A stretch of 64,000 bases of DNA from a virus (IMGVR_UViG_3300020469_005214:32001-96000); one strand, 5' to 3'; positions 3,914-18,581 are shown, counted from the first letter of the stretch. The notes: generated from the sequence alone by a model not told the origin. A program made the numbers and translations.

Positions 3914-6244
3914 ATGGCAAAGGATTTTTTGGAGTTTTATAGGAGCAAAGGTAATAATTTGTCGGATATCGATATATATTATGATTTTGACACTGGAAAT
4001 CTTGAAGAAGTACCTGTTGGTGGCTTCTTTATGGCAGGTAATACTGAAAGACCCATAGTTTACAATAAAAATTCAGAAATAACACAATATAATTCCAACG
4101 CTATTGGCGAAAATTTTTCTGGATTTTACGACGAAGAAGGTAGCGGTAATCTTAATAAATCTTCTCCTGGAGAAGCAAGTTATTTAAAAGTTTTTGATGG
4201 AAGTAATTTATCTGGCGCTTCAAACTGGACTTTTCTAATTACTACAAATAAGTCTGGAACTAATAATGGTCTTATTTTTAGCAGTTTATCAGGCGACAAA
4301 GGTTTTAATATAGGCTTTAATGATACTCATAACTTTTATCTTGAGTCGCCTTCTGGAGTATTTGTTTCAGAATTGAATTATGCTAGCTATAATGGACTAT
4401 TTTTAAGTAAAAATGCATCAAACTTTAATATAGGTAGATATAATTTTGATAAAAAGAAATTTGATTTCGAAAGTTTTAGGATGGATGGAGTTTCTCATGG
4501 TGAAAATTGGTTTATTGGCGGAACACCAAATGAACAAATATTAGAATCAAGTTTTAGCGGTATAATAGATAATTTTGTTTATTTTAATAAAAAAATAAAT
4601 AATACTAAATTAAATAGCGTATTTTCTGGAGTTCTTACTGTGGATCAAAGTTCTTTGGGCTTTATTGATTTAACTGGAAAACGTGTTACCACAACTGGAT
4701 TTGTTGAATCTGGAATTAGAAATATTTTTGAAGAATCTGCCGATATTTCTGGAAGATTTTCCGTTTTGAAAGAAACCATACCTTTTAATAGTAATATAAT
4801 AAAAACTGGACACATTAATGATCTTTGTGGAAATAGAGAGCCACTTTATGGAAGCGGAAACAAAATTGGCGTAAAAAAAGGAAACTTTTTCATTGAATAT
4901 AGCGGTAATTTTACCGAGTCAACATCTTCTGTAACAAATAATAACACAAGCGGCTCTATCTTTGTAACTAGACAATTACTTACTGGTTTTGAAAGCCAAG
5001 TAACTTTAAGCACTGGAGACTTTGTAAATCTAATATTTCAATACAACTGTCTAAACGAGTGCGGAAATGTTGAACCCATATTTTCATTTGAAAGTGGGAC
5101 TGGAATTGTAAGTGGTTTTAACTTTATACCTTTAAGCGGTCTTGTGAGTGGTATTGATTCTACCACGATTGAAACTGGAACTTTAAAAGAAGTGTCCGTG
5201 CATGATATTATTGATCAATCTTGTGGATTTCATATTGATAGTGGTTATGTTGATCAATACGGATTTGACTCGATTTTTATTAATAAATATATGCGTCCTA
5301 ATGCTTTAAATCAGTCTTTAGTTTCTTCTGGAGATCTAAATTTAAATAATCTAGTAGAATATAATAATACTAAAAGGTTTTTTAACATTCCACAAAAAGA
5401 TTTAGACAATAACTTTTTTGCATTCTATAGCGGACATCTACAGGTATCAGGAGAAAATTATGATATAAGGGATAATAATAAAATTACTGGACATGGATTA
5501 AATTCTTCTGGCGCTTTTACTTACGGAAATTTATCTGTATTAAAAATTAGAAACGTTAGCGATACATACACTTTATCAGGAGAAACTTCATTGTTATTTA
5601 CTGGAGAAAAAAATACTTTACACACAATCTTAACTGGTTCTGGATCGAATCATACTCTATCAGAAATTGCCGATGACGGTGTTACTAGTTTTGTTTTTGG
5701 CGGGCTAACATATAATACTGTAGGCAGTATTGTAAATAATAAGATTGTATGGGATACTGAAGATAATAGTGTTATATATGTTATTTCTTGGGATAATTCA
5801 AAATGGATTCAAACTATATCCGCTGTTCCAGGTCTAGAAAATACTGTACACACTGATGATACAAAATATCCTTGGAGAAATGCAGGTGGAGGATTACAAA
5901 GCAATTTTAGTAATCTTGTAGGGTTGTCAGCCGAAGAATTCAAGGCTATGGAATTTAATGATAATTTTCAAATTAATAGCGGAGATAATCATTATTTAAG
6001 TTTTAATAAATTTTTTGAAAAAAGCTCAATGGTATTCTCAAATGGGGAAAAAATGTTACATGGTTCTGAGTATTTAGAGACAGCAAATAACAAAAGGTTA
6101 AGATCTGGGATATTCGAAGTAAAAGGAGATTCTTTTGGGGCTATAAACGAATTTTTTGATAAAAACATTTTGGGCAACAATATCTTGTTACAAGATGGTA
6201 ACAATGTCTTAACTCAAAGCACTGATAACTTATCCTTAGAATAG
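3914..6244 (+). CDS. Virion structural protein, ConA/LamG-like N-terminal domain, SG/TG-rich
   Basis: WTFLI...WFIGG...FSGIIDNFVYFNKKI is a LamG-like signature; C-terminal ILLQDGNNVL motif typical of phage structural proteins. Confidence 0.65.
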   Translation: MAKDFLEFYRSKGNNLSDIDIYYDFDTGNLEEVPVGGFFMAGNTERPIVYNKNSEITQYNSNAIGENFSGFYDEEGSGNLNKSSPGEASYLKVFDGSNLSGASNWTFLITTNKSGTNNGLIFSSLSGDKGFNIGFNDTHNFYLESPSGVFVSELNYASYNGLFLSKNASNFNIGRYNFDKKKFDFESFRMDGVSHGENWFIGGTPNEQILESSFSGIIDNFVYFNKKINNTKLNSVFSGVLTVDQSSLGFIDLTGKRVTTTGFVESGIRNIFEESADISGRFSVLKETIPFNSNIIKTGHINDLCGNREPLYGSGNKIGVKKGNFFIEYSGNFTESTSSVTNNNTSGSIFVTRQLLTGFESQVTLSTGDFVNLIFQYNCLNECGNVEPIFSFESGTGIVSGFNFIPLSGLVSGIDSTTIETGTLKEVSVHDIIDQSCGFHIDSGYVDQYGFDSIFINKYMRPNALNQSLVSSGDLNLNNLVEYNNTKRFFNIPQKDLDNNFFAFYSGHLQVSGENYDIRDNNKITGHGLNSSGAFTYGNLSVLKIRNVSDTYTLSGETSLLFTGEKNTLHTILTGSGSNHTLSEIADDGVTSFVFGGLTYNTVGSIVNNKIVWDTEDNSVIYVISWDNSKWIQTISAVPGLENTVHTDDTKYPWRNAGGGLQSNFSNLVGLSAEEFKAMEFNDNFQINSGDNHYLSFNKFFEKSSMVFSNGEKMLHGSEYLETANNKRLRSGIFEVKGDSFGAINEFFDKNILGNNILLQDGNNVLTQSTDNLSLE

Positions 6245-6267
6245 CTTTGATTGAAAAAATAATAGTG

Positions 6268-6287
6268 TATAATATAATATAATATAA
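6268..6287 (+). repeat. (TATAA)4 pentanucleotide repeat directly upstream of ATG 6290
   Basis: gtg-tataatataatataatataa-ta-atg. Confidence 0.85.
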
Positions 6288-6289
6288 TA

Positions 6290-9200
6290 ATGAAAGAAAT
6301 AAAAGCAGAATCAATACAAATTGATGGAGCAAGTGAGATATTTGGAGGTAAAATATATAACGCTTCATTTACAAATAATTTTTCAGATTCACCATCTGCC
6401 TTCACTATAAACGTTGTCAATGAAACAGGTGAATATGATATTCCAGATTTAGATGCCAGATCTATTAAAGAACTTTACGAAATAACTATAGGAGAAACGT
6501 TGTTTGGGCAATATAGCTTGGTTAAGACGCGTACAAGTGTAAACAAATCGGGTAAAGTATTGGAATTAACTTTCTTTGACATTACTATGAATTTTGACAA
6601 AATTTTTATTGGATTACACAAAAAACATGGAATTATACCAAGATCTGAACCAAAGGGGGGTGAAAGACTAAAAAGCTATAGTAAAGAAGATACAATGCTT
6701 TCATTAAATGGTATAGGCGCTGAAGGAGGTGGTGAAGAAGGAGACCTAAGACCAATGTATCATATTCAGCTTAATGAACAGGAGGAAATTACACCTTTAA
6801 TTATATTGGGCAGAGAATTTCATCCTTGTGATACAAATCGAGATGGATATCTAAATCTTGACGAAGATATATTTAAAGTAGACGGATGTGACCCATGTCC
6901 AACTTGCCCAGAAGATAAATATGATGGAAGTTTAGATCGTCAAAGATGTTTAGATTTAGAGTGTAGTGAAATTTTTGAAGTTAGATATAACTTTAAGGCA
7001 TTAATTGATGCAATTACCGAGTTTTTTGAAAAATCAAAGATAAATATAGTATTAGATCCAGAAGGTATACCAGAAATAAATGAACTATATTTTGCAGATT
7101 ACGAAGGAACTTTAAGGGAAGTTTTAAAAAGATGGGGGGCAGACTTTTCTTTTAACTTTTATGTAGAGAATCTTGGTGACGAGCCTACTCTTAAATTTGC
7201 GGACACCAGTGTTGAAACAGATATTATTGGTAAAAAAGAGTTGGAACAAGAAGATATTATAAGTTTTGAAGAAACACAAAGTGTCGAAAATACTCAAAAT
7301 ATTGGAACTATATCTCTTTATAAACAGGGCGGAGAAAGAAAAATTTACGATTGTTCTACAAGTGTTAAGTTAGATTTAAAGCCCATGCACTTAACAGACT
7401 TATATAATGATACGGATGATGCTCTTCTCGGTAGACAAGTTAAAGGTAACGACTTTGTATCTTTTGAAGATTTGGAAGTTTCGGTCGCTCTTACTAAATA
7501 TAGTACGGCTATACGAGAGCAATTTTGGTATGGATACATTTATGGAGCAGACGGGGGTAGACCTGGGATTACGTGCCTACAATACGTAGGACCACCCGAT
7601 ACAACAAGCTCATCTAGTGGAGAAGAAGCGCCTGAATTTTCATTGCCAGTAGAGCGCCAGGGTGGACTGGGCGAAAGATCTAAAGGTATAACCGAATCAG
7701 AAGGAATAGACGAATTAAATGAAGAAGATCTATGCGAAATAGCAAGAAATAGAGGAATACTTCAGCTTGGTGAAATGAAACTATTGGCGTTCTTTTTTCC
7801 TACTGGTATTGACGGTGAAGAACCAGAGATATATCATAACAGGGGCACCGAGTTTAATGGTGGAATGGAAGGCGTGATACCAGACTTAAATAATAAAGCG
7901 TGTAATTTGATTAAAGATGCGTGGAATCCTAGCGCAGAAGAATTAGATTTTTTTAGTCAAGTTCCGCTTTTTGGGGGTATTGATCTTAAATTTGATCCAG
8001 AAGATCCAGATAAATCACGCGATACATTTACTGTTGAATCGTTTAGTAGGGGATACTTCGTATTAGCTTCTAGAAAAGAGGAAATGTTGGAAAAGATTAT
8101 AGACAATGAAAAAAGATTAGGTAATGAGTTTATAGGAAAATATTTTGCAACAGAAATACACCCTCAAGATAATATAAATGTTTGTGGATATGACAAATAC
8201 GGACGAAAAGATTATAGCAGAAAAAATATTACTATAAAAGGAGGAGGAGAATTTTATAATTACAATGACGGAGACACTTCAAAATTTTTAGAAAGTCCCC
8301 TATTTTCTTTTGGTCACAGCAAGGGATCAAAAATCGGACAATTGCAAGACAGACTTAAAGGCAAAGAAAAGATTACAATATTACAAGATGGGCAAGACCC
8401 TTTTGATGAGGGAATAATAATACAGAAAACTGGAAACACATTTTTTCCAGAAGAGGGTGCTACAAATGATATAAAGAAATTTATAAGCATTTATGAAAGA
8501 AAAAGAATGCAGATAATACCTTTAGACCCAGTAACTCTTAGTACCTTTATAGCAAAATTTGCTCCAGAACATGTTAATGATGCAAATGTTAAAATGTTTG
8601 CTTTTTATCCAGATGATTTTAGTGATGGATTTGATATTGAAAGAGACATAATTCATCCATCAATAAAAGTAAATGCTACAGACAGTAGAGGTAGAGATGT
8701 ATCCTCTGGTTGTTACGGAGACTGCGAAAATGACAAAGAATGTTTTGAAGGAGAAAAAAATCCAGAAAGACTTGCAAAGCTAGAGGCAAAGATGAGCGAT
8801 TTGGTGCCCAATTCTACTCATTTTAGAGCTGTTCGAAGGGAAATACAGGGGGATAATTGTGTGAACGGCATATGTCAAGACAAAAATGCTTGTACCAGCA
8901 ACGAAAGCTGCGAATCTTTTGAAAGCTTTGATGGAGAAACCTTTTCTGAATATGAATGTGTAAATGGTGAATGTATTGAAAAATTAGGTTTACAGTCATC
9001 AATTACTACAAGACTAGATATAAATGGATTCAAAATTTTTGCCCCACCGCACGGATTTGCAGTGCCATCAGGTAGAAGAATTTTTATTCCTAGTATAGAA
9101 ACTTTTGAGCCTAGAAGTTATAGGTCTATTTTAGAATATCAAAAAAGAGTCGAAGTTTTTATTCCTAAAGTAGAACACATGATTCAAGATAATATAGAAA

Positions 9201-9625
9201 AGTTTGACAGTAGTTTTGCTAAATTTAACGTGAATTTATATCAAATTCCTATCGACGACTTGAATTTATTTTATAGAGAAGGCTTGGCTACTCAAACATG
9301 TAGACCTAGTGACGAATTACTAGAAAAATTACATGAAGACTTTAACCAGAACTTATCATACAACCTTACAGATCCGCGTAAAAATATAAGAGTATCTATT
9401 GTTGGAATTTCTGAAAAATTATCTGATCCAGAAATAATCACTAAGGGTTTAGAATCTTTTAATATCAATTTGTCATCAGATGGAGTCACTTCAAGTTATG
9501 TTTTTGGTAATAAAATTATGCAACCAATTCCTATAGATGTAACAAGAAGACTAATAGATATATTACAAAGAAGAACTAATAGTCATTTAAATTATACTCA
9601 ATCTGTAAAAGGGCTAATAAATTAA
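6290..9625 (+). CDS. Large acidic virion protein (tail/baseplate hub-like) with Cys-rich modules
   Basis: 1111 aa within the structural cluster; DTNRDGYL Ca-binding-like loop; CDPCPTC; CVNGIC/CVNGEC modules. Confidence 0.55.
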   Translation: MKEIKAESIQIDGASEIFGGKIYNASFTNNFSDSPSAFTINVVNETGEYDIPDLDARSIKELYEITIGETLFGQYSLVKTRTSVNKSGKVLELTFFDITMNFDKIFIGLHKKHGIIPRSEPKGGERLKSYSKEDTMLSLNGIGAEGGGEEGDLRPMYHIQLNEQEEITPLIILGREFHPCDTNRDGYLNLDEDIFKVDGCDPCPTCPEDKYDGSLDRQRCLDLECSEIFEVRYNFKALIDAITEFFEKSKINIVLDPEGIPEINELYFADYEGTLREVLKRWGADFSFNFYVENLGDEPTLKFADTSVETDIIGKKELEQEDIISFEETQSVENTQNIGTISLYKQGGERKIYDCSTSVKLDLKPMHLTDLYNDTDDALLGRQVKGNDFVSFEDLEVSVALTKYSTAIREQFWYGYIYGADGGRPGITCLQYVGPPDTTSSSSGEEAPEFSLPVERQGGLGERSKGITESEGIDELNEEDLCEIARNRGILQLGEMKLLAFFFPTGIDGEEPEIYHNRGTEFNGGMEGVIPDLNNKACNLIKDAWNPSAEELDFFSQVPLFGGIDLKFDPEDPDKSRDTFTVESFSRGYFVLASRKEEMLEKIIDNEKRLGNEFIGKYFATEIHPQDNINVCGYDKYGRKDYSRKNITIKGGGEFYNYNDGDTSKFLESPLFSFGHSKGSKIGQLQDRLKGKEKITILQDGQDPFDEGIIIQKTGNTFFPEEGATNDIKKFISIYERKRMQIIPLDPVTLSTFIAKFAPEHVNDANVKMFAFYPDDFSDGFDIERDIIHPSIKVNATDSRGRDVSSGCYGDCENDKECFEGEKNPERLAKLEAKMSDLVPNSTHFRAVRREIQGDNCVNGICQDKNACTSNESCESFESFDGETFSEYECVNGECIEKLGLQSSITTRLDINGFKIFAPPHGFAVPSGRRIFIPSIETFEPRSYRSILEYQKRVEVFIPKVEHMIQDNIEKFDSSFAKFNVNLYQIPIDDLNLFYREGLATQTCRPSDELLEKLHEDFNQNLSYNLTDPRKNIRVSIVGISEKLSDPEIITKGLESFNINLSSDGVTSSYVFGNKIMQPIPIDVTRRLIDILQRRTNSHLNYTQSVKGLIN

Positions 9626-12600
9626 TGATATTAAGTGGCAAAAATTTTAGAAGCATTGCAGATCAAACTGGTGATTTTAGTTATGCTTTTACCGTTCAAA
9701 CCAAAAGTAAATTTTCGGATATTCATGTTGGTTTAACTGGGGAATATAATATAGACTATAGGTTTCTTAGTGGTAAAATTTTTGATAGAAATACAGGCTT
9801 TGTAGATAGTTATTCTAATAATGATAATTTCATTATTTCTGGAAATTTAAAGAATCATCAACACGAATATTTTATAAACGGAATTCCAAAGGTTGTAGGA
9901 GAAACCGTGCCGTCTGGAAAAATATCTGGAATTTTTGCTATCAATGAAGAAGCAGAAAATATTGGTTTTAATTTTTTTGGACAAGTCCCCTCTCATTCAA
10001 TCACTACAAGCTCTGATAAGTTAGTATTTGGTGAAACGTTAACAGGATTTATAAATAATAGTAATCCCGATCTTTCTTTTACGGTATTTAGCGGAGAATT
10101 AATTAATTCAGATATTCCAGCAGTTTTTGCTATAGATACTTTTCAACAAGTAACAGGATCAGGCATTACAGGTGGAGCAAAATTTCTTTTAACACCAACA
10201 GAATCAGAAACTTTAAGCGGAGTAGCTAGTTTATTATTTCATACGAATTTTGGTGAAATAAATTTTGATTATAATTTGACTGGAGGAAATTTACCTACCG
10301 TTATAAGGGATAGTTCTTATTTAGATTTACTGACTTTTATTAATGATTTTGATGGAGAAACTGGTTCTATTGTTGTTACGAGCTTTTTTGCTAATTATGA
10401 TGGTGCAGAAATAAGTGTTACTCTTGGGCATCTTTCTGGAGAAACTGGCGAAATATTTAGAGATAAAGATTTTACTAGAGATTTCGTTAGTACCGAGGAT
10501 ACTTTTGTTAGCGGAACGAATGCAGTTCCTATTTTTAAGACTGGTTTGGTTTCTGGTTTAGACGCTTCTGGGCTTTTGCAAACTGGTTTAGGGTCAGGGT
10601 TTTTAACTGGTTTTACTAATGCTACTGGACAAATAATTAATGATTTTGAATTGGTTTTAACTGGTTTAGGAAAAGGATTTGTTGATACTGACATAAATTT
10701 GGCAGGAATTAAAGATACTCGCTTTTCTGGTTTCGTTCCTTTTGGAACAAGTGTAATTTCAGGTATAGTCAATAACATTACCGGTACTGGAACTTTTAAC
10801 GAACAGGAACTTACTGGAATGATTAGAACTGGTGTAGGTCAAATTGGATTTGATCCACTTGATCACTTACCATCGGGTGAAATAAATCTTCCACCGAGTG
10901 CATATAATACAACACTTAAAAATAAATTTTTGGCGTTTAGTGGAGAAATCACTGGATTTTATGATTTAATTGGAAGTGGATTTGCTGGATTTATTGTAGA
11001 AACTGGTATATTTGATCAAAATTTCTCTGGAAATGTTAAAAGAGGCGTTTATAATTTTGAAAAAGAATATGATACATTTATTACTGGTTTTGAAAACTTA
11101 TTTGGACCAGACACTGTTGGAGAAATAGTTAGTGGAATACTTCCTGAAACTAGTGGATCGGGCTTTTATATAACTGGAAATTTAAGTGTGAAGGAAGATG
11201 GTGCGTGTATAGAAGAAAGCCCAGTATTTTCAGTTTCAGGAAAAACCGCAGATTTTCCTTATAACTTTAATGTAGCTAATTTATTATTATCCTTTTACAA
11301 AGTAAACCCAGCCTTTACTGGATGTATCATGACTGTGCAAAGGGCTTTTGATGGCGAAACTAAAGATATTTATTTTTATAATAATTATATCAATGTTGCA
11401 AATATACAACAGTTTGCAAAAAGCGGGGAGGTTTTTGTCACCGAGTGGAAAGACCAGTCTTTAAATAAAAATAATTATGTTCCAGATATAGCTGATAGAC
11501 CAAGAATATTAACTAGTAATGGAGTTTTTGACTCTGGTATACATTTTGATCGAAGCTTATTAAAAACAAATAATCCTTTGGGTTTTATTGATGGAGCGGG
11601 TTATACAATTGAATTTAGCGGAGGTAATGTTGGATATTCTGGGGGTTCTTACTATAATCCATCTATAGATATTGGAAATTTAAATGTAGGATGGCAGATT
11701 GATTTCTCTGATGAAGTAACAAGTGTATCTAAGGGCAAAAATCTTGTTATTCCTACAGTTGTTTTTGATACAAGTTTGTTTATAGACGCGATTACAACAG
11801 ATAAAAAAATATTTTTAGGAACTAAACTTTCTGATATTCATATCTTTCCTTTTAATACTGATATTAGGGGCGGATCTAATTTCCTCTTTGACACAACAAC
11901 AGGTGCATACACACCCGATACATTCCCATTCTCTTTGGATATCGATGCTGAATGTGAGTCAATCCTAGTAAAAAATGAAGATTCAGATAGCGAGGTCGTA
12001 GGAAATCCACAGACAACTGCGGATATTATCTTTGAACTAAATGGGGATGGAACAGAGTATATTGTGAAGAAATGTTCTACAAATTTAGTTGGTGATGTAG
12101 TAATTTATAGCACTCATTTAGATACGACGCAATCAGCAAGCACTTTACCTGTTACTGTGATTGGGGTAGCCGCATTCTTAAACTGTTCTAATATAACTAG
12201 CGTTACCCTTCCTAACAGCCTGACCTCGATTGAAGGTAGTGCATTCCTAAACTGCGCTGGCCTGACCAGCATTACGATCCCCAACAACGTGACTTCGATT
12301 GGCGACTCTGCATTCGGTGGATGTTCTGGCCTAACAAGCGTTACGATTCCCGACAGTGTTACCTCGATTGGAGATTTTGCATTCAGAAATTGCACCAGTC
12401 TGACAAGCATTACGGTCCCCGATAGCATGACCCAGATTAGAGATGGTGTGTTTAAAAACTGCACAAACCTAGCCAGCATTACCATCCCCGACAGTGTTTT
12501 TTTAATTGGTGATCATGCTTTCAGTAGCTGCGATAGCCTAACCAGTATTATCATTCCCGATAGCGTGACATTAATTGGTGATCATGCTTTCAGTAGCTGC

Positions 12601-14127
12601 GATAGCCTAACCAGTATTATCATTCCTGACGGTGTGACCCGGATTAATGTTAGTACATTCAATGGTTGCGGTAGCCTAACCAGCATTACGATTCCCGAAG
12701 GTGTGACCCGGATTAGAGCTGGTGCATTCAATGGCTGCAGAAGTATAACCAGCATTACTATTCCTAGCACTGTAAATCAGATTGATTTCTCGGCATTCGC
12801 AAATTTAGATAGTGCCACTGCACTCATCTTCTTGGGTACAGAAGCTCCAAATTTGAAAACTTTGCCAGATGGTGAACAATTTATTAATGGAGTTCTTATT
12901 AGTGCGTTCGGTTCTGTAGAAAATCCTGATAATCCATCAATAATTGTTCAAGTGCCAGATGGAGTCGACAGTGCTGGCATCCCCATTTATGAAAGCTATA
13001 TATCCAAAGCTAAGGGTGGAGATGGTGTAAGTAAGTATGGAGGATTAGAGGTTCAGGTACAAGCATCGTTAAATTCTTTAACATTTTTGTTAAATAGCAC
13101 TGGCACTGGGTATATTATGCATCGTTGCGATCCTATTGCTGTGGGATCAATAACAATTCCCAGTACCTTCAATGGCTTACCAGTGACCGAACTTTCAAAT
13201 ATTGCGTTCTATCTCTGCACTAATATAACTAGTGTTACGATCCCCGATAGCGTGACCGAGATTAGGGATGGTGCATTCTATCAAGCCTCTGGACTGACCA
13301 GCGTTAACATCCCCGACGGTGTTACCTATATTCGAGATTTTACATTCTGGGAATGTTCAAGTTTAGATAACATAACAATCTCCAATAATGTGACTTCAAT
13401 TGGAAGGCTGGCATTCGCAGACTGCACTAGCCTAAGCAACATCACGATTGGGAACAGTGTGACCCTGATTGACGATCGGGCATTCTTGAAGTGCACTAGC
13501 CTAGCCAGCATTACACTCCCTGACAGTGTGGTCACAATTGGTAGATCACTCCTAACCGCTGCAAGTGTATTCGCTGGTTGCAGTAGCTTGACCAGTATTA
13601 ATATTCCCGATGGCGTGAGGACGATTCAAGCTGGTACATTCTCTAATTGCACTAGCCTGACCAGTGTCACGATTCCCGACAGCGTGACCTTGATTGGAAG
13701 ATTGGCATTCAATACTTGCACAAGTCTTACTAGCGTCACGATTGGCAACAGTGTGACCACGATTGACCAATCCGCATTCTCTAATTGCACTAGCCTGGAC
13801 AATATTACGTTACCTGATAATTTGAGACAAATTAACGAAAGTGCATTCGCTGGTTGCAGTAGCCTGACTAGCATTACCATTCCTGACAGTGTGAGCTCTA
13901 TTAAACAAAGTGCATTCCGAAACTGCATTAGCCTAGCAACAATCACAATCCTCGGTTTAAGGGCTCCTTCTCTATTAAAGACCGTTAATGCAGGTTATGA
14001 AGTCGACCAAAGAGAGACTTCAGTATTTGCAGATGTTGGAACCAGATTTGTTAATATGCAGGTAGGAGTAACTAATATTGATGAGGGTGGCGTATTTTAT
14101 GGAAGCCTACAAATAGTATATGTATAA
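9625..14127 (+). CDS. Putative tail fibre/receptor-binding protein: SG/TG-rich N-terminus, ConA-like module, two BspA (TpLRR) LRR cassettes
   Basis: 23-aa repeats LTSITIPDSVTSIGxxAFxxC; module VQRAFDGETKDI...FVTEWKDQS at ~11330-11460 resembles a common phage lectin-like fibre domain. Confidence 0.8.
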   Translation: MILSGKNFRSIADQTGDFSYAFTVQTKSKFSDIHVGLTGEYNIDYRFLSGKIFDRNTGFVDSYSNNDNFIISGNLKNHQHEYFINGIPKVVGETVPSGKISGIFAINEEAENIGFNFFGQVPSHSITTSSDKLVFGETLTGFINNSNPDLSFTVFSGELINSDIPAVFAIDTFQQVTGSGITGGAKFLLTPTESETLSGVASLLFHTNFGEINFDYNLTGGNLPTVIRDSSYLDLLTFINDFDGETGSIVVTSFFANYDGAEISVTLGHLSGETGEIFRDKDFTRDFVSTEDTFVSGTNAVPIFKTGLVSGLDASGLLQTGLGSGFLTGFTNATGQIINDFELVLTGLGKGFVDTDINLAGIKDTRFSGFVPFGTSVISGIVNNITGTGTFNEQELTGMIRTGVGQIGFDPLDHLPSGEINLPPSAYNTTLKNKFLAFSGEITGFYDLIGSGFAGFIVETGIFDQNFSGNVKRGVYNFEKEYDTFITGFENLFGPDTVGEIVSGILPETSGSGFYITGNLSVKEDGACIEESPVFSVSGKTADFPYNFNVANLLLSFYKVNPAFTGCIMTVQRAFDGETKDIYFYNNYINVANIQQFAKSGEVFVTEWKDQSLNKNNYVPDIADRPRILTSNGVFDSGIHFDRSLLKTNNPLGFIDGAGYTIEFSGGNVGYSGGSYYNPSIDIGNLNVGWQIDFSDEVTSVSKGKNLVIPTVVFDTSLFIDAITTDKKIFLGTKLSDIHIFPFNTDIRGGSNFLFDTTTGAYTPDTFPFSLDIDAECESILVKNEDSDSEVVGNPQTTADIIFELNGDGTEYIVKKCSTNLVGDVVIYSTHLDTTQSASTLPVTVIGVAAFLNCSNITSVTLPNSLTSIEGSAFLNCAGLTSITIPNNVTSIGDSAFGGCSGLTSVTIPDSVTSIGDFAFRNCTSLTSITVPDSMTQIRDGVFKNCTNLASITIPDSVFLIGDHAFSSCDSLTSIIIPDSVTLIGDHAFSSCDSLTSIIIPDGVTRINVSTFNGCGSLTSITIPEGVTRIRAGAFNGCRSITSITIPSTVNQIDFSAFANLDSATALIFLGTEAPNLKTLPDGEQFINGVLISAFGSVENPDNPSIIVQVPDGVDSAGIPIYESYISKAKGGDGVSKYGGLEVQVQASLNSLTFLLNSTGTGYIMHRCDPIAVGSITIPSTFNGLPVTELSNIAFYLCTNITSVTIPDSVTEIRDGAFYQASGLTSVNIPDGVTYIRDFTFWECSSLDNITISNNVTSIGRLAFADCTSLSNITIGNSVTLIDDRAFLKCTSLASITLPDSVVTIGRSLLTAASVFAGCSSLTSINIPDGVRTIQAGTFSNCTSLTSVTIPDSVTLIGRLAFNTCTSLTSVTIGNSVTTIDQSAFSNCTSLDNITLPDNLRQINESAFAGCSSLTSITIPDSVSSIKQSAFRNCISLATITILGLRAPSLLKTVNAGYEVDQRETSVFADVGTRFVNMQVGVTNIDEGGVFYGSLQIVYV
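12502..12626 (+). repeat. Exact 56-bp tandem duplication with 69-bp period (one LRR unit)
   Basis: ttaattggtgatcatgctttcagtagctgcgatagcctaaccagtattatcattcc at 12502-12557 and 12571-12626. Confidence 0.9.
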
Positions 14128-14180
14128 GGGTAAAAAATAATTAATCGATTAAACTATAAAAATTTAAAAAAATATAAAAA

Positions 14181-17100
14181 ATGAGCGTGAATACAAATGC
14201 AACTGTAGGGGACTGGGCGGTTTTTGCACCAGAATATGATTCAGAAAGTGGTATATCTATTATACCTTCTTATAACCCATATTTAAAAATATATCAAACG
14301 CAGTCGCAAACTTTAACTGGGACTTGTTATGCAGGAATAGGTGCGGTTGGAAATTTAGTTGCTATGGGAATGCAAGATATACTTAATGGCGGCCCAGATA
14401 CTGCTACATTTTACGACCCGAAAAATGACATTCTTAAACAACACCCTTTAAGTTTTAATAAGGGGCTTGGTGGCGTTGCTGGAGTTGGAGACTTTGCAGT
14501 TTTTGAGGTAGAGGATTATGGTTCTACGAAGCTTATAGCTCATTGTTTTAACCCAACAACAGAAGAGGGTTTTGAATTGCAGTATACTGGCAATTACGAT
14601 CCGCTGTCTAGTCCTAATCCATTTGCAGGTGTTGCGACAGTAGGGGACTTTGCGGTTTACGCTCCACAAAATTCGCCCCAAATTATGGCGGTCAATCCAA
14701 TTACTCAATCTGTCCGACAAGTGACACACGGTCAGCCCCGAATAAGTGCAGATGATGGTGCACTTGCCCCGTACTTCTTTGCAGGACCAGCTGTTGTTGG
14801 GGACTGGGCGGTGATGGCTGGACTAACTGGAAACGTAGTTTGTTATAATCCGACCACAAATGAATTGTATACACATACGGAAGAATTACCTCTAAAAGAA
14901 GCAACATCTGCTCAAAGAGCGGGATCGTTTACCGCAAGATTTGGCAGCCCAACTAAAGTTGGAAATTTTGCAGTTTTCCCGCCAAGCAGGGGAAATACTA
15001 TTTTGGCATTTAATCCTATAACTAGAACTCAAAAAACTTTAAATTTTGATTTTGAAGATTTTCAGTCCTCTGATTCTACAGCTTTAATTACACCTGAAAA
15101 CAATAATTGGTTCGGCGGTGCATCTACATTAGCATTAAACGTGAGCGGAGAATTAAAAGAAATGGCTATATTTCCGCCGTCTGCTGCCCTATCACCACTA
15201 GCTTATGACCCAGTAGAAAATGTATATCACAAGTTTAATGCAGAAACAAATATGCGATATCTTGTATCTGCAGCTGTAAATGGGGAATGTATAGTACACT
15301 ACCCAAATATGGCAGATCTAATTTTTAAAACCGCACCTGATCGTTCTAAATATTTTGCAACTATAAAGGGGGTTGAATCTAATTATGATAGTACAAGATA
15401 TTTTAGAGATGGATCTGAGTTACTCTTTGAACTAAATGAAGATGGTACGGCTTACACATTAATTAGTTGTGGAGTGGGATATGTAGGATCTTTAGATATT
15501 CCTGATACCTACGATAGTTTACCAGTTACTTCGATTGAGTTTGGTGCATTTTTTGGATGTAATCAATTAACAAGCGTTACGATTCCTAGTAGTATAACTT
15601 CAATGGGTGTTGCTGCTTTTCAAGACTGTATTAGTCTAGAAACAGTAGATATAGCTGAAGGTATAACAACCATTCCACTATACGCATTCTTTAATTGCTT
15701 AAACTTAAATAATATTACAATTCCCACTAGTGTGACTAGAGTCAGAGGTTTTGCATTTAAAGGATGTATAAGTTTGTCTCTAATTAATGAGATAATCTCA
15801 GGAATAACCTCGATTGAAGATGGTACGTTTCAAGGATGTACTTCAATACAATCTGTTTTGATTCCTGATAACATAACTTCAATTGGAGCTAAGGTATTCG
15901 AAAATTGTTCTGGATTAGTCAGCATTGATATTTGCGAATACGTAACAAAAATTGGATCTCATACATTTGAAAGAAGCGGGTTGAGACAAATTACTATCCC
16001 AGATGGAGTGACTGAAATTGAATGTAAATTATTCAATGAATGTAGTGAACTTACCACCGTTACAATTCCAGACAGTGTGACCGCAATTGGGGAAGCTTCG
16101 TTTAGAAACTGCATAAATATGCTTAACATAGAGATTCCTAGTAACCTGACTTCTATTGAAAGTTATGCATTCTTTGGATGTAGCAAAATAGAACAAATAA
16201 TTCTTCCCAGTACCTTGATCTCAATTCAAAGTAGAGCATTTAAAAATTGCACAGCCTTGACTGCTATAAGAATCCCTGATAGCGTAACAACAATAAATGC
16301 ACAAGCATTCATGGGCTGCACTAGTCTGAGTTCTATAATATCTAAGGCAACATCTGCTCCAGTTTCAAACATACTACCAGTAGGTATTCAAGAAGAGGTT
16401 TTTAAGAATGTTTTAACCACAGAAATCATAATCCCAGTTGGTGCTACAGCGAGCTATCAAACGGCAGGCGATGGAACCTTATATGCAGGCTTAACAATAG
16501 TAGAACTGAGCATTTCATCTTCCCTTGAATTTACTTTAAACGATGCTGGAACAGCATATTCCATGTCTAACTGTCCGCAAACAGCTGTCGGAGATATAGT
16601 AGTTCCCAGTACTCATTTAGATTTAGCGCAATCATCAAGCACTTTGCCCGTGACCGCAATTGGAGATGATGCATTCCGTTATTGCTATGACATTACCACT
16701 ATTACGATTCCAGATAGTGTTACTGATATTGGAAAATCTGCATTCCGAGGCTGCGGAATGACCAGTATTACGCTTGGAAACAGCGTGACCGCAATTGGAG
16801 ATGATGGATTCCGTTATTGCACCAGCCTGACAAGCATTAACATCCCAGACAGTGTTACCTCGATTGGAGATTTTGCATTCGAAATCTGCTATAAGCTAAC
16901 TAGCATTACGATTGGAAACAGCGTGACCTCGATTGGAGAAGAAGCTTTTCGTAACTGCGATAGTCTAACCAGCATTACCATTCCCGACAGTGTCACCTCA
17001 ATTGGAGAAAGGGCATTTCAAGACTGCTCTAATTTGGAGAGTGCCACGTTATCTAATAATAGTTCTTTTTTAAGGGTTTCCAATATGCTGTTCCTGAATT

Positions 17101-18581
17101 GTCGTAAGCTAGACAGTATTACGATTGGAAACAGCGTGACCTCGATTGGCGAGAATGCATTTACAAATTGCCCATTACTTAGCGCCATTGTGATTCCTGA
17201 TAGTGTAACTTCTATTGAAAAACGAGCATTTTACTTGAACCAGCAATTTTCCTCAACCTATACAGGGTTTGGTTTAACAAGTATCACACTATCTAATAGT
17301 TTGACCTCCATTGGAGAGGAGGCATTCATAAATCAGAGGTTCTTTACGTCCATTACAATTCCTGCCACTTTGACTAATTTAAGTAGTCTTGCATTCAAAG
17401 CATGTGGCTCTCTGTTGTCAATCGTATTCCTTGGGGATTCTGCTCCAGTTGTTGATTTTGTACCAGTTGACTCTAGATTCCCAGCTTCAACAACACAATC
17501 TCCGTTTGACCAATTCTTTTTTATACCGAAAGCAAGTACATATCAAAGCTTATCTATTTATAATAGATCCAGTTCTGACGTTAGAAGTACTACAGTATTG
17601 ACCGTACCAGAAGGAGCAATTCCCAGTTATGTAAGTACAGCAAATGGTGGTGGAGATGGATCTACAACATATGGAGGTCTAGAAGTTGTATCAGTAGCTG
17701 GGGTGTCTGACATAACCTTTACCTTAAACGATGATGGAACAGCATATACTATAACTGATTGTCTTAGAACAGCTGCTGGAGCTTTAACTATTCCTAGCAC
17801 CCATTTAGATACAGCGCAATCAGCAAGCACTTTACCTGTTACTGTAATTGGAGAGGATGCATTTAATAATTGCAGTTTCCTGAGCAGTGTTATAATTCCC
17901 AGTAGCGTGACCAAGATTATAAAGGGTGCATTCCGTCAGTGCAATAGCTTGATCAGCATTACGATTCCAAACAGTGTGACTGAGATTGGACTTTATGCAT
18001 TCGATAACTGCCCTGGCCTAACCAGTATTACCATCCCCGACAGCGTTACTGAGCTTGGGACATTTACCACGACGAGTGGCTCAATTGCGCGTGGTGCTGT
18101 CTTTACAGATTGCCGATCTTTGGTTAGTGTTACGCTTGGTAGCGGCATAACTAGACTCGAAAGTGGCATGTTTCGCGATTGTATAAGTCTGACAAGCATT
18201 ACGATTCCTAGTAACATAACTTATCTCGGAACTGGTGTATTCACAGGCTGCTCCAGTCTAACTAGCCTGATCATACCTAATAGCGTAACCTCAGAAATAA
18301 GAGAGATAGTCGTAAACTGCACAGACTTAACTAGTATTACGATTGGTACTGGAGTACCGACAGTACGACAACCGTTCTTTGCAAATCCTAATCTAACTAC
18401 AATTAACTTTCTTCCTACATCAGCCCCACAAATATTATCATCTGCTCTTTTTACAGATATAGGAACCACAAGCATTAATGTTCCCGTAGGAGCACTTTCA
18501 AGCTATATAGACATAGCAAATGGTGGAGATGGATCTACCAAATATGGAGGTCTAACAGTTGTAGAGGATGCAACTTTATAA
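14181..18581 (+). CDS. Putative receptor-binding protein: N-terminal beta-propeller-like repeats plus three BspA LRR cassettes
   Basis: Repeated VG[DN][WF]AVxxP blades in the first ~400 aa, then TpLRR 23-aa repeats. Confidence 0.8.
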   Translation: MSVNTNATVGDWAVFAPEYDSESGISIIPSYNPYLKIYQTQSQTLTGTCYAGIGAVGNLVAMGMQDILNGGPDTATFYDPKNDILKQHPLSFNKGLGGVAGVGDFAVFEVEDYGSTKLIAHCFNPTTEEGFELQYTGNYDPLSSPNPFAGVATVGDFAVYAPQNSPQIMAVNPITQSVRQVTHGQPRISADDGALAPYFFAGPAVVGDWAVMAGLTGNVVCYNPTTNELYTHTEELPLKEATSAQRAGSFTARFGSPTKVGNFAVFPPSRGNTILAFNPITRTQKTLNFDFEDFQSSDSTALITPENNNWFGGASTLALNVSGELKEMAIFPPSAALSPLAYDPVENVYHKFNAETNMRYLVSAAVNGECIVHYPNMADLIFKTAPDRSKYFATIKGVESNYDSTRYFRDGSELLFELNEDGTAYTLISCGVGYVGSLDIPDTYDSLPVTSIEFGAFFGCNQLTSVTIPSSITSMGVAAFQDCISLETVDIAEGITTIPLYAFFNCLNLNNITIPTSVTRVRGFAFKGCISLSLINEIISGITSIEDGTFQGCTSIQSVLIPDNITSIGAKVFENCSGLVSIDICEYVTKIGSHTFERSGLRQITIPDGVTEIECKLFNECSELTTVTIPDSVTAIGEASFRNCINMLNIEIPSNLTSIESYAFFGCSKIEQIILPSTLISIQSRAFKNCTALTAIRIPDSVTTINAQAFMGCTSLSSIISKATSAPVSNILPVGIQEEVFKNVLTTEIIIPVGATASYQTAGDGTLYAGLTIVELSISSSLEFTLNDAGTAYSMSNCPQTAVGDIVVPSTHLDLAQSSSTLPVTAIGDDAFRYCYDITTITIPDSVTDIGKSAFRGCGMTSITLGNSVTAIGDDGFRYCTSLTSINIPDSVTSIGDFAFEICYKLTSITIGNSVTSIGEEAFRNCDSLTSITIPDSVTSIGERAFQDCSNLESATLSNNSSFLRVSNMLFLNCRKLDSITIGNSVTSIGENAFTNCPLLSAIVIPDSVTSIEKRAFYLNQQFSSTYTGFGLTSITLSNSLTSIGEEAFINQRFFTSITIPATLTNLSSLAFKACGSLLSIVFLGDSAPVVDFVPVDSRFPASTTQSPFDQFFFIPKASTYQSLSIYNRSSSDVRSTTVLTVPEGAIPSYVSTANGGGDGSTTYGGLEVVSVAGVSDITFTLNDDGTAYTITDCLRTAAGALTIPSTHLDTAQSASTLPVTVIGEDAFNNCSFLSSVIIPSSVTKIIKGAFRQCNSLISITIPNSVTEIGLYAFDNCPGLTSITIPDSVTELGTFTTTSGSIARGAVFTDCRSLVSVTLGSGITRLESGMFRDCISLTSITIPSNITYLGTGVFTGCSSLTSLIIPNSVTSEIREIVVNCTDLTSITIGTGVPTVRQPFFANPNLTTINFLPTSAPQILSSALFTDIGTTSINVPVGALSSYIDIANGGDGSTKYGGLTVVEDATL

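What the first reader, a model, noticed from the sequence alone, without database searches (positions are those of the whole stretch)
12022..18575. Five interchangeable BspA-LRR cassettes in two adjacent virion genes, with identical DNA tracts between genes: candidate variable-LRR receptor-binding system
Seen: the two ~1500-aa genes end in 2 and 3 self-contained cassettes (~12022-13059, 13078-14124, 15420-16505, 16524-17690, 17712-18575). Each has the same N-cap ([LI]xFxLNxxGTxY..C....G...IPS..LPVT.I), a variable number of 23-aa TpLRR units and a C-cap (GGDG.xxYGGL.V). Identical tracts occur between genes (31 bp at 12128-12158 = 17815-17845; 33 bp at 12352-12384 = 16848-16880) and within them (56-bp unit duplicated at 12502/12571; 32 bp at 16905/17118). 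The framework residues are constant while those around IGxxAFxxC vary from unit to unit. Established: TpLRR solenoids are adhesins that bind through the variable concave face. Inference: the conserved framework DNA lets homologous recombination or gene conversion (a RecA-like gene is at 44059) shuffle, add and delete LRR units. That would give a combinatorial host-recognition repertoire, conceptually like lamprey VLR assembly and distinct from DGRs or invertases.
Basis: partly seen in the sequence, partly recalled or inferred. Interest (0 to 1): 0.82.

Follow-up and report, generated by a model that had tools for sequence, protein, structure and literature searches.

The report
Phage LRR adhesin cassettes trading patches
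Two neighbouring giant genes of an uncultured marine phage end in five stand-alone leucine-rich-repeat domains that swap short DNA patches with each other; this is ordinary repeat-driven recombination in a likely host-recognition locus, not a programmed diversity machine.

Summary
Genes 9625-14127 and 14181-18581 end in 2 and 3 self-contained BspA/TpLRR-class (Pfam LRR_5) domains, and all four exact DNA tracts are at the stated coordinates.

With the proteins held fixed and synonymous codons resampled, exact repeats of 25 nt or more are expected 0.007 times; four are seen.

Gene conversion between cassettes is supported, but only for short tracts:
- A PHI recombination test on eight N-caps gives p=0.0005.
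- A related phage has its own 50-nt identical tract between its two genes, in the same N-cap loop.
- Independent Tara/ENA assemblies are identical over 10-22 kb except for clustered patches that match paralogous cassettes, plus one 69-nt unit deletion that could be an assembly collapse.

Related phages carry 0 to 5 cassettes at this locus.

Not supported:
- A VLR-like or programmed system: no silent donors, reverse transcriptase, invertase or inverted repeats.
- Variability on the concave face: the variable positions (12, 15, 16, 19, 20, 22) lie outside the LxxLxL strand.
- Virion location, which remains untested.

Eight assemblies found through a neighbouring gene show no variation in these genes, so turnover is modest.

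The scan noted this stretch twice more from overlapping windows of this genome, not on other DNA.

The parts
9625..14127 (+). g1: 1500-aa protein. N-terminal 790 aa of unknown family, followed by LRR cassettes A and B.
   Evidence: ORF; LRR_5 470.9 bits. Its start overlaps the stop of the upstream 1111-aa ORF by 1 nt. Orthologues of the N-domain carry 0, 1 or 2 cassettes.
12022..13059 (+). Cassette A: N-cap, 9 units, C-cap GGDGVSKYGGL.
   Evidence: Segmentation. Fourfold GC3 is 0.369 against 0.164 in the same gene's N-domain, p=1e-6.
13078..14124 (+). Cassette B: N-cap without the HLD..QS loop, about 11 units, divergent C-cap.
   Evidence: fourfold GC3 0.389.
14181..18581 (+). g2: 1466-aa protein. 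N-terminal beta-propeller of about 400 aa, followed by LRR cassettes C, D and E.
   Evidence: ORF; LRR_5 691.6 bits. AF2 model of aa 1-410 has pLDDT 82.6 and is all-beta with 4-strand blades; best fold matches are Kelch and designed propellers.
15420..16505 (+). Cassette C, a positional orthologue of the first g2 cassette in related phages.
   Evidence: N-cap 56-65% and C-cap 51-54% identical to the first cassettes of P0003, P0004 and P0005. GC3 is 0.231, like the phage background.
16524..17690 (+). Cassette D.
   Evidence: Its N-cap carries both population patches.
17712..18575 (+). Cassette E.
   Evidence: The AF2 model of this cassette alone has pLDDT 93.6 and pTM 0.87. It matches LRR_5/TpLRR structures 4gt6, 4fs7, 6mlx and 4cp6.
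12128..12158 (+). 31-nt exact tract in the N-cap loop of A, identical to 17815-17845 in E (between genes).
   Evidence: Flanks are 59% identical; run test p=0.0006, uncorrected. Logan k=31 contigs break exactly at 17816.
12352..12384 (+). 33-nt exact tract in A unit 3, identical to 16848-16880 in D (between genes).
   Evidence: flanks 61% identical.
12502..12626 (+). Two adjacent units sharing 56 identical nt (12502-12557 and 12571-12626). This is the site of the 69-nt indel and of the L028 variants at 12510, 12514, 12515 and 12580.
16905..17149 (+). 32-nt exact tract within D (16905-16936 identical to 17118-17149).
16526..16626 (+). Polymorphic N-cap of cassette D. Patch 1 (16526-16534, 5 substitutions, LEFTLN to LTFLLN) is in L015. 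Patch 2 (16602 and 16623-16626, VVPSTHLDLAQ to VIPSTHLDTTQ) is in L016.
   Evidence: All 5 changed bases of patch 2 take the state of cassette A, with a 24-nt exact match to 12112-12135. In patch 1, 4 of 5 bases take the state of cassette B.
44059..45171 (+). UvsX-like recombinase, the general recombination enzyme that could carry out the exchanges.
   Evidence: phrog_97, E 1.3e-25. Its role at this locus is inferred only.
3914..9625 (+). Two co-oriented upstream genes (776 aa and 1111 aa) of unknown family. Their gene order with g1 is kept in related phages.
   Evidence: No Pfam or PHROG hit. The same order is seen in L011, L014, L018 and L024. Their 90% clusters have only 1-2 members, against 22-25 for the replication genes.

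Best explanation
g1 and g2 are two large modular proteins in the most variable block of an uncultured marine tailed phage. The contig is at least 142 kb and the phage recurs in Tara Oceans samples.

Each protein joins a lineage-specific N-terminal domain to tandem, independently folding BspA/TpLRR-class LRR_5 domains. The g1 N-domain is 790 aa of unknown fold. The g2 N-domain is a beta-propeller. The proteins are most likely adhesin or fibre-like host-recognition proteins; this is inferred, not shown.

The locus changes by ordinary homologous recombination on repeated DNA:
1. Whole cassettes are gained, duplicated, lost or fused over evolutionary time.
2. Short tracts (about 5-60 nt) are copied between cassettes of the same or the other gene, that is, ectopic gene conversion.
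3. Single 69-nt units are probably added or lost by unequal exchange.
4. Amino-acid substitutions accumulate at a few exposed positions of the variable segment.

No dedicated machinery is involved. The phage's general recombination genes (UvsX-like recombinase, repair exonuclease) would suffice.

Shown: the domain family and fold, the modular anatomy, the exact tracts, the mosaic signal, the population variants and the cassette-number variation. Inferred: virion location, receptor binding, and that the variants change host range.
For: Family and fold:
- LRR_5 hits above cut-off.
- 23-aa unit consensus.
- AF2 model of cassette E, pLDDT 93.6.
- Sequence and fold matches to 4fs7, 4gt6, 6mlx (TpLRR) and 4cp6 (PcpA).

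DNA identity beyond protein constraint:
- Codon-resampling null: 0.007 repeats of 25 nt or more expected, 4 observed.

Mosaicism:
- PHI test p=0.0005 on 8 N-caps.
- In relative L011, the g1 cassette and g2 cassette 2 share a 50-nt exact tract in the same N-cap loop where window cassettes A and E share 31 nt. The tract sequence is specific to each genome, and upstream identity in L011 is 56%.

Population variants:
- L016 is identical over 13.8 kb except for 5 changes, all to the state of cassette A.
- L015 is identical over 9.6 kb except for 5 changes within 9 nt, 4 of them to the state of cassette B.
- L028 and L015 come from one sample and differ in cassette A. L028 has a 3-nt patch that matches unit 3, plus two further amino-acid changes.
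- L017 lacks exactly one unit.
- All five amino-acid substitutions seen in cassettes fall at unit positions 12, 15, 16 or 20.

Cassette turnover:
- g1 orthologues carry 0, 1 or 2 cassettes.
- g2 is absent in L018.
- Fused g1N-g2N proteins carry four PKD+LRR cassettes up to 88% identical in nt.

No programmed machinery:
- No RVT_1, resolvase or integrase family in the contig, and no notable inverted repeats.
Against: - Eight assemblies found through the neighbouring 123-aa gene show no difference anywhere in g1/g2.
- The variant contigs L015-L017 were found because their proteins differ, so an excess of events in cassettes cannot be claimed. My rough count gives a threefold excess with binomial p of about 0.06, and it is biased by how the contigs were found.
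- The 69-nt deletion is in a contig with a SPAdes-style name (NODE_..., cov 17.8). The assembler is inferred from that name. From my own knowledge, not checked here, metaSPAdes by default uses k-mers up to 55, shorter than the 56-nt repeat, so the deletion may be an assembly collapse.
- The max-chi-square mosaic test on cassettes A, D and E alone is not significant (p=0.18).
- The run tests are uncorrected for many pairs.
- Patch 1 has no exact donor in the 77%-complete contig.
- Patch 2 is not one continuous tract, because 4 intervening D-specific bases remain.
- Nothing ties g1/g2 to the virion. No tail-fibre family matched, they lack the N-terminal anchor motif of the small LRR proteins, and they lie 22 kb past the tape-measure gene, behind a block on the opposite strand.
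Confidence: 0.6

Rival explanations
1. A dedicated combinatorial diversification system. The conserved framework DNA exists to let recombination shuffle, add and delete LRR units at high frequency, giving each phage population a repertoire of receptor specificities, in the manner of lamprey VLR assembly or of segmental gene conversion in TprK, VlsE or pilin.
For: - Templated patches and a unit indel are the only differences between otherwise identical genomes.
- Two independent patches fall within 100 nt of one N-cap.
- Several assemblies break inside the cassettes.
- Substitutions hit only hypervariable positions.
- A recombinase is encoded.
Against: - There are no silent donor cassettes; every cassette lies in an intact ORF.
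- The events are tiny (3-5 nt, one unit). No mosaic haplotype with reordered units or cassettes was seen.
- Eight assemblies found through a neighbouring gene are invariant.
- The five cassettes are only 42-62% identical in their caps, so they are old paralogues, not a rapidly homogenised array.
- There is no specialised enzyme.
- The exact tracts are short (31-56 nt).
Confidence: 0.08
2. No ongoing exchange. The exact tracts are leftovers of past duplications kept by codon and protein constraint, and the population 'variants' are assembly or strain-mixing artefacts.
For: - The 56-nt pair lies in adjacent units, as a simple tandem duplication would leave it.
- The deletion in L017 could be a collapse by a short-k-mer assembler.
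- The max-chi-square test is not significant.
- Most assemblies are invariant.
Against: - Codon resampling rules out protein constraint plus codon bias as the cause.
- The patch contig L015 and the variant contig L028 come from an assembly with k=127, longer than any repeat here, so those variant paths must exist in reads. The assembler of L016 is not known.
- 5 of 5 and 4 of 5 changed bases match a paralogue. Errors would not do this.
- A second phage shows its own 50-nt tract at the same site, with upstream identity of 56%.
- PHI test p=0.0005.
Confidence: 0.12
3. The cassettes evolve as described, but g1 and g2 are not receptor-binding virion proteins. They could be decoration proteins that stick the virion to particles, mucus or non-host surfaces, or non-structural proteins released at lysis or acting inside the cell.
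For: - No tail-fibre or baseplate family and no anchor motif.
- The genes lie 22 kb from the tape-measure gene, after a block on the opposite strand.
- g2, and the cassettes of g1, are dispensable in close relatives (L018: g1 without LRR, g2 absent).
- The phage has other, smaller LRR proteins with a fibre-type N-terminal motif that could be the true receptor binders.
Against: - By eye, neither protein starts with a hydrophobic signal-peptide-like stretch; no signal-peptide predictor was run.
- Gene order with large upstream genes is conserved, and the g1 start overlaps the upstream stop.
- This block is far less conserved than the replication genes, as receptor-binding modules usually are.
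- Population amino-acid changes are concentrated at exposed variable positions.
Confidence: 0.2

Closest known systems
BspA/TpLRR-class bacterial surface LRR proteins (Pfam LRR_5, PF13306). Solved examples: 4FS7, 4GT6, 4H09, T. pallidum TpLRR 6MLX, pneumococcal PcpA 4CP6.
   Same: - Same 23-residue unit (LxxIxIPxxVxxIxxxAFxxCxx).
- HMM score far above cut-off.
- Same fold in the AF2 model.
- Tandem arrays of many such domains are common: 414,611 representatives at E<=0.001, the top ones 2,000-8,000 aa long with 10-40 matched stretches.
   Different: - Encoded by a phage.
- Fused to phage-specific N-domains (a beta-propeller and an unknown 790-aa domain).
- No obvious signal-peptide-like N-terminus on reading the translations (no predictor run).
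- No binding partner is known for these proteins.
LRR/BspA-annotated proteins of uncultured phages (PHROG 35892 and 18805; BFVD entries from gut Siphoviridae and Myoviridae sp.; Synechococcus phage S-SKS1 PKD-domain protein).
   Same: Same domain in tailed-phage genomes, often in proteins of about 1000 aa or more. The PKD+LRR combination of S-SKS1 recurs in relatives L013 and L014.
   Different: None of these has a described function or described population variation. Identity to the window's cassettes is below 50%. My two literature searches found no paper that studies such proteins in phages.
Modular T-even tail-fibre adhesins: gp38 with conserved glycine-rich motifs separating hypervariable segments (Trojet et al. 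2011, PMC3157838). Also, from my own recall and not checked here, duplications of a small gp37 domain that expand host range (Tetart et al. 1996, 1998).
   Same: Conserved framework sequence flanks variable specificity segments, so determinants are easily exchanged by general phage recombination. Repeat duplication is a route to new specificity.
   Different: Unrelated fold and family. In T-even phages the link to host range is shown experimentally; here it is not.
Segmental gene-conversion antigenic variation (T. pallidum TprK, Borrelia VlsE, Neisseria pilE/pilS) and lamprey VLR assembly. Described from my own knowledge.
   Same: Short templated patches copied from paralogous cassettes into a variable region. 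VLRs also use LRR units.
   Different: Those systems have one expression site plus arrays of silent donors, and high programmed rates; VLR assembly is also associated with a cytidine deaminase. Here all cassettes are expressed parts of intact genes, no donor array exists, and variants are rare.
Diversity-generating retroelements and invertase or shufflon switching of phage tail fibres.
   Same: These are phage mechanisms that vary receptor-binding proteins.
   Different: - No reverse transcriptase, and the substitutions are not adenine-specific.
- No serine or tyrosine recombinase, and no inverted repeats.

Membership tests
Pfam LRR_5 / BspA-TpLRR class | Profile match above the curated cut-off | tested here: met
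   470.9 and 691.6 bits against a 27.7-bit cut-off.
Pfam LRR_5 / BspA-TpLRR class | 23-residue unit with L1, I4, I6, P7, V10, I13, A17, F18 and C21 | tested here: met
   Consensus over 57 units. F18 is invariant; C21 is present in 50 of 57 units.
Pfam LRR_5 / BspA-TpLRR class | LRR solenoid fold like the solved members | tested here: met
   AF2 pLDDT 93.6. Foldseek probability 1.00 to 4gt6, 4fs7, 6mlx and 4cp6. phmmer E 1.8e-44 to 4fs7.
Pfam LRR_5 / BspA-TpLRR class | Adhesin function at a cell or particle surface | not testable with these tools
   No binding data. Inferred from relatives only.
Phage tail fibre / receptor-binding protein | Component of the virion tail | not testable with these tools
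   The phage is uncultured and has no proteome. Context only: tape-measure gene at genome 13916-19642; g1 at genome 41625.
Phage tail fibre / receptor-binding protein | Match to a known fibre, spike or baseplate family, or an N-terminal anchor | tested here: not met
   PHROG hits only to LRR families of unknown function. The anchor motif is present on the small LRR proteins, not on g1/g2. The g2 N-domain is a generic propeller.
Phage tail fibre / receptor-binding protein | Hypervariable relative to the core genes of related phages | tested here: met
   90% clusters have 1-4 members for g1, g2 and the two upstream genes, against 22-25 for polymerase, RNR and helicase.
Diversity-generating retroelement | Reverse transcriptase with a template repeat; adenine-specific changes | tested here: not met
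   No RVT_1 in the 141.7-kb contig, which is 77% complete. The variant bases are T>A, G>A, A>C, C>T, T>C and A>G.
Invertase / shufflon switching | Site-specific recombinase plus inverted repeats flanking alternative 3' ends | tested here: not met
   No resolvase or integrase family. Only two weak 21-nt inverted pairs. All five cassettes are direct and in frame.
VLR-type or silent-cassette gene-conversion system | Incomplete or single expression site plus an array of non-expressed donor cassettes | tested here: not met
   Both genes are complete ORFs. Every LRR_5 match in the contig lies in an open frame of 276-1514 aa.
VLR-type or silent-cassette gene-conversion system | Templated patches from paralogous cassettes in population variants | tested here: met
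   L016: 5 of 5 changed bases take the state of cassette A. L015: 4 of 5 take the state of B. L028: 3 of 3 take the state of unit 3.

The most novel reading that the evidence does not exclude
A marine phage diversifies its host-recognition surface by ectopic micro-conversion among expressed LRR cassettes. Short templated patches, unit gain or loss and cassette turnover would then create co-existing receptor-binding variants within one otherwise clonal population. This would be a third route to phage receptor diversity beside DGRs and invertases. It might also explain the twofold rise in synonymous GC of all cassettes through GC-biased conversion.
Probability: 0.15. Interest if true: 0.8.

Novelty: new variant of a known kind. 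Interest (0 to 1): 0.48.

Why it matters
LRR_5 proteins are annotated in many uncultured phages but have not been studied, and what they bind is unknown.

This locus offers a concrete case with three features:
- Cassette number varies from 0 to 5 among close relatives.
- Natural, otherwise identical genomes differ only by templated patches in the cassettes.
- Amino-acid changes fall at a defined set of unit positions.

If g1 and g2 are receptor binders, those positions mark the binding surface. The locus would then show how repeat architecture lets general recombination tune host range in the ocean. If they are not receptor binders, they point to a different use of adhesins by phages. Either way the claim is testable with existing Tara reads.

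Tried and rejected
- Near-identical DNA in isolated phages: none.
- Max-chi-square mosaic test on A, D and E: p=0.18, not significant.
- Pairwise run tests: small p-values, but uncorrected for hundreds of unit pairs. The D-D pair is out of register, so it is not used as evidence.
- Search for the source of cassettes A and B in 1.84 billion representatives: the ranking is dominated by giant LRR_5 arrays, best identity is about 55%, and no donor was identified.
- Cassette translocation between genes (A resembling cassette 2 of g2 in relatives): C-cap identity is only 43-48%, too weak to claim.
- Enrichment of events in cassettes over flanks: about threefold by my rough count, biased by how the contigs were found, not claimed.
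- Exact look-up of the two small LRR proteins: not in the collection under my chosen start codons.
- P0013 has no contig on record.
- Protein-atlas leads for the N-domains scored below 0.9 and were not used.
- Promoter and terminator scan: no more sites than in shuffled sequence.
- Searching the full records behind L015 and L016: not held.
- The atlas fold library was not available.
- DGR, invertase and silent-donor systems were considered and rejected.

Full report
SETTING

The window is bases 32001-96000 of a 141,669-bp IMG/VR phage contig, classed as linear and about 77% complete. The contig encodes:
- a 1909-aa tape-measure protein at genome 13916-19642;
- family-B DNA polymerase, ribonucleotide reductase, DnaB-like helicase, primase, a UvsX-like recombinase and repair exonucleases;
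- glycosyltransferases and heptose-pathway enzymes.

Identical or near-identical contigs come from Tara Oceans and other marine metagenomes. This is therefore a large, uncultured marine tailed phage.

THE OBSERVATION

The ORFs 9625-14127 (g1, 1500 aa) and 14181-18581 (g2, 1466 aa) are real. Both match Pfam LRR_5 (BspA type) far above the cut-off. Their only PHROG hits are LRR families of unknown function.

Each has a hairpin N-cap (xxFxLNxxGTxY...C), 7-12 units of 23 aa and a C-cap. The GGDG..YGGL C-cap is clean in A, D and E, altered in C and absent in B. Cassettes A, D and E carry an extra loop (HLD..QS...) in the N-cap that B and C lack.

All four exact tracts are exact and maximal. I fixed the proteins and resampled synonymous codons from the cassettes' own usage. 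Repeats of 25 nt or more then occur 0.007 times per replicate and never exceed 25 nt. The real sequence has tracts of 56, 33, 32 and 31 nt. The tracts therefore reflect identity of the DNA by descent, not protein constraint.

WHAT THE CASSETTES ARE

Cassette E modelled alone folds with pLDDT 93.6 and pTM 0.87, so it is a self-contained domain. By sequence and by fold it matches the structural-genomics LRR_5 proteins 4FS7, 4GT6 and 4H09, the T. pallidum TpLRR (6MLX) and pneumococcal PcpA (4CP6).

The family is huge. It has 414,611 representatives at E<=0.001, and the best scorers are proteins of 2,000-8,000 aa with 10-40 matched stretches. Tandem LRR_5 domains are thus a common architecture.

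Phage examples exist only as annotations: gut phage contigs, PHROGs 35892 and 18805, and Synechococcus phage S-SKS1. My two literature searches turned up no paper that studies them.

WHERE THE VARIABILITY LIES

Over 57 canonical units, entropy is highest at positions 19, 16, 20, 15, 22 and 12, that is, IGxxAFxxCx and VTxI. Positions 2, 3 and 5 of the LxxIxI strand are mostly Thr or Ser, at about 2 bits.

In LRR nomenclature the conserved LxxLxLxxNxL segment forms the stacked beta-strands and the remainder is the variable segment (PMC5976695, PMC2946307; abstracts seen). That this strand lines the concave face is my own knowledge. In the model that strand is the regular beta element of each unit.

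I could not read the model coordinates, so the exact face remains open.

THE N-DOMAINS AND THE 'VIRION' CLAIM

- The g2 N-domain (aa 1-410) models as an all-beta propeller (pLDDT 82.6). Its best matches are Kelch and designed propellers, which says nothing about function.
- The g1 N-domain has no family. The atlas leads to ConA-like lectin clusters score below the useful range.
- By eye, neither protein starts with a hydrophobic signal-peptide-like stretch; no predictor was run.
- The g1 start overlaps the stop of the upstream 1111-aa gene.
- The order 776 aa, 1111 aa, g1 is kept in relatives.
- In two relatives the g1 and g2 N-domains are fused into one protein, which suggests that they act in one structure.
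- g1 and g2 lack the N-terminal motif (MxDKKISEL...LLPVVD) that starts the small LRR proteins at the contig ends.
- They lie 22 kb beyond the tape-measure gene, behind a block on the opposite strand.

Virion location is plausible but unproven.

RELATED PHAGES: CASSETTE TURNOVER

The replication genes sit in 90%-identity clusters of 22-25 members on many contigs. g1, g2 and the two upstream genes have clusters of 1-4 members. This is the variable block of the clade.

- Orthologues of the g1 N-domain (59-79% identical) carry no cassette (P0009, P0011), one (P0010, P0012) or two (the window).
- In L018, g1 has no LRR and g2 is replaced by a DUF6734 gene.
- g2 orthologues carry two or three cassettes, some with a further non-LRR end.
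- L013 and L014 fuse both N-domains to four cassettes whose N-cap is a PKD domain. Their N-caps are up to 88% identical in nt, and the longest exact repeat is 72 nt.
- The first g2 cassette is a stable positional orthologue. The others are not clearly orthologous.

EVIDENCE FOR EXCHANGE BETWEEN CASSETTES

1. A PHI test on the eight N-caps of equal length (three from the window, three from L011, two from L021; 165 nt, 90 informative sites) gives p=0.0005.
2. In L011 the g1 cassette and g2 cassette 2 share a 50-nt exact tract with 56% identity upstream. It lies in the same N-cap loop where window cassettes A and E share 31 nt, and each genome has its own sequence there. The same segment has been homogenised between the two genes in two genomes, each in its own way. 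That is what gene conversion predicts.
3. The simpler max-chi-square test on A, D and E alone is not significant (p=0.18). The run tests are uncorrected, so I give them little weight.

THE NATURAL POPULATION

The 90% clusters of g1 and g2 hold a few near-identical variants, and I fetched their contigs.

- L017 equals the window over 16.2 kb except for a 69-nt deletion at 12502-12570, exactly one unit of the 56-nt pair.
- L015 equals it over 9.6 kb except for five substitutions within 9 nt (16526-16534).
- L016 equals it over 13.8 kb except for five substitutions at 16602 and 16623-16626.

Both patches lie in the N-cap of cassette D.

In L016 all five new bases are the bases of cassette A, with a 24-nt exact match to 12112-12135. 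Four D-specific bases in between are kept, so the tract is discontinuous.

In L015 four of five new bases match cassette B and the peptide becomes B's LTFLLN. One Leu codon differs, and no exact donor exists in the contig.

L028 comes from the same sample as L015 and overlaps it in cassette A. There it differs by a 3-nt patch (GDH to GDF, matching unit 3) and two further amino-acid changes. Two haplotypes therefore co-exist in one sample.

With the two substitutions of P0013, all five amino-acid replacements seen in cassettes fall at unit positions 12, 15, 16 or 20. By my estimate the chance of that is about 0.001, if 6 of 23 positions are called hypervariable. In the same contig the three isolated SNPs outside the cassettes are two synonymous and one not.

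CAVEATS

- L015-L017 were found because their proteins differ.
- I then anchored on the neighbouring 123-aa gene. The eight further assemblies showed no difference anywhere in g1/g2. L030 matches over 12.3 kb, and L032-L034 differ only from 19616 onwards. L024, L026 and L027 are also identical.
- By my count, variants of the D N-cap occur in 2 of 6 assemblies that cover it, and variants of cassette A in 2 of 7. An excess over the flanks cannot be shown.
- L017 has a SPAdes-style contig name. From my own knowledge, metaSPAdes by default uses k-mers up to 55, shorter than the 56-nt repeat, so the unit deletion may be an assembly collapse.
- L015 and L028 come from an assembly with k=127, above every repeat length here, so those paths must exist in reads. 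The assembler of L016 is not known.
- Many contigs end inside the cassettes. Two Logan contigs start exactly at the 31-nt tract, which fits a break at a repeated k-mer if, as I assume, those assemblies use k=31.

COMPOSITION

Fourfold-degenerate GC3 in the window:

| Region | GC3 |
|---|---|
| Cassette A | 0.37 |
| Cassette B | 0.39 |
| g1 N-domain | 0.16 |
| Cassette D | 0.30 |
| Cassette E | 0.27 |
| Cassette C | 0.23 |

A and B each differ from the g1 N-domain with p of about 1e-6 to 1e-7. In the relatives every cassette is raised (0.31-0.56) over its N-domains (0.13-0.30). The cause is open: repeated import from GC-richer sources, or GC-biased conversion.

WHAT IT IS NOT

- The contig has no reverse transcriptase, and the changes are not adenine-specific. 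This is not a DGR.
- It has no serine or tyrosine recombinase and no meaningful inverted repeats. This is not an invertase or shufflon.
- Every LRR_5 match lies in an open frame and both genes are intact. There is no silent-donor array and no VLR-like assembly.

VERDICT

The anatomy and the identical tracts are real. Short-tract gene conversion between cassettes, within and between the two genes, is supported. Cassette number is fluid among relatives.

This is best read as ordinary recombination on repeated DNA in a variable, probably host-recognition locus. The closest parallel is the modular T-even adhesins, where conserved motifs flank exchangeable specificity segments (PMC3157838). It is not a programmed repertoire generator.

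It is a new variant of a known kind and is directly testable with existing Tara reads. The same stretch was noted twice more by this scan from overlapping windows of this genome (e1-5763507, e1-5763508), and not on other DNA.

Noticed in passing
window 12022-14124 and 16524-18575; L011, L013 and L021 cassettes: Fourfold-degenerate GC3 of the LRR cassettes is about twice that of the N-domains of the same genes: 0.27-0.39 against 0.16-0.24 in the window, and 0.31-0.56 against 0.13-0.30 in relatives. The cause could be foreign origin or GC-biased conversion; it is unresolved.
   Followed up: partly
window 241-368 (minus-strand 2392-aa gene): Contig L028 differs from the window by 11 substitutions within 128 nt of the giant gene, in an otherwise almost identical 18.8 kb. 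This looks like a short tract imported from a relative about 91% identical.
   Followed up: no
window 19616 onward (adenylyltransferase and nuclease genes, minus strand): Contigs L032-L034 are identical to the window through the part of g2 they cover and then diverge sharply from 19616. This marks a recombination breakpoint between strains just downstream of the LRR locus.
   Followed up: no
window 14181-15410: The g2 N-domain is a beta-propeller built on a repeated VGDWAVF-like motif (AF2 pLDDT 82.6). In relatives L013 and L014 it is fused directly behind the g1 N-domain in one protein of more than 2100 aa.
   Followed up: partly
L013:1066-9654 and L014:7640-14125: In these relatives each LRR cassette begins with a PKD domain in place of the hairpin N-cap, and ends in a different C-cap (GTGLTIGGN...). 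Four such cassettes stand in tandem. A PKD+LRR protein of Synechococcus phage S-SKS1 has a similar fold.
   Followed up: partly
genome 1-3035 and 140124-141668 (outside the window): Both ends of the contig lie in further LRR_5 genes on the minus strand. Two complete small ones (315 and 419 aa) start with an MxDKKISEL...LLPVVD motif. The assembly probably broke in LRR repeats, so more cassettes may lie in the missing 23%.
   Followed up: no
L018:12860-13684 and L021:605-1429: A 274-aa DUF6734 gene sits after g1 in relatives. It replaces g2 in L018 and precedes g2 in L021. It is absent from the window.
   Followed up: no
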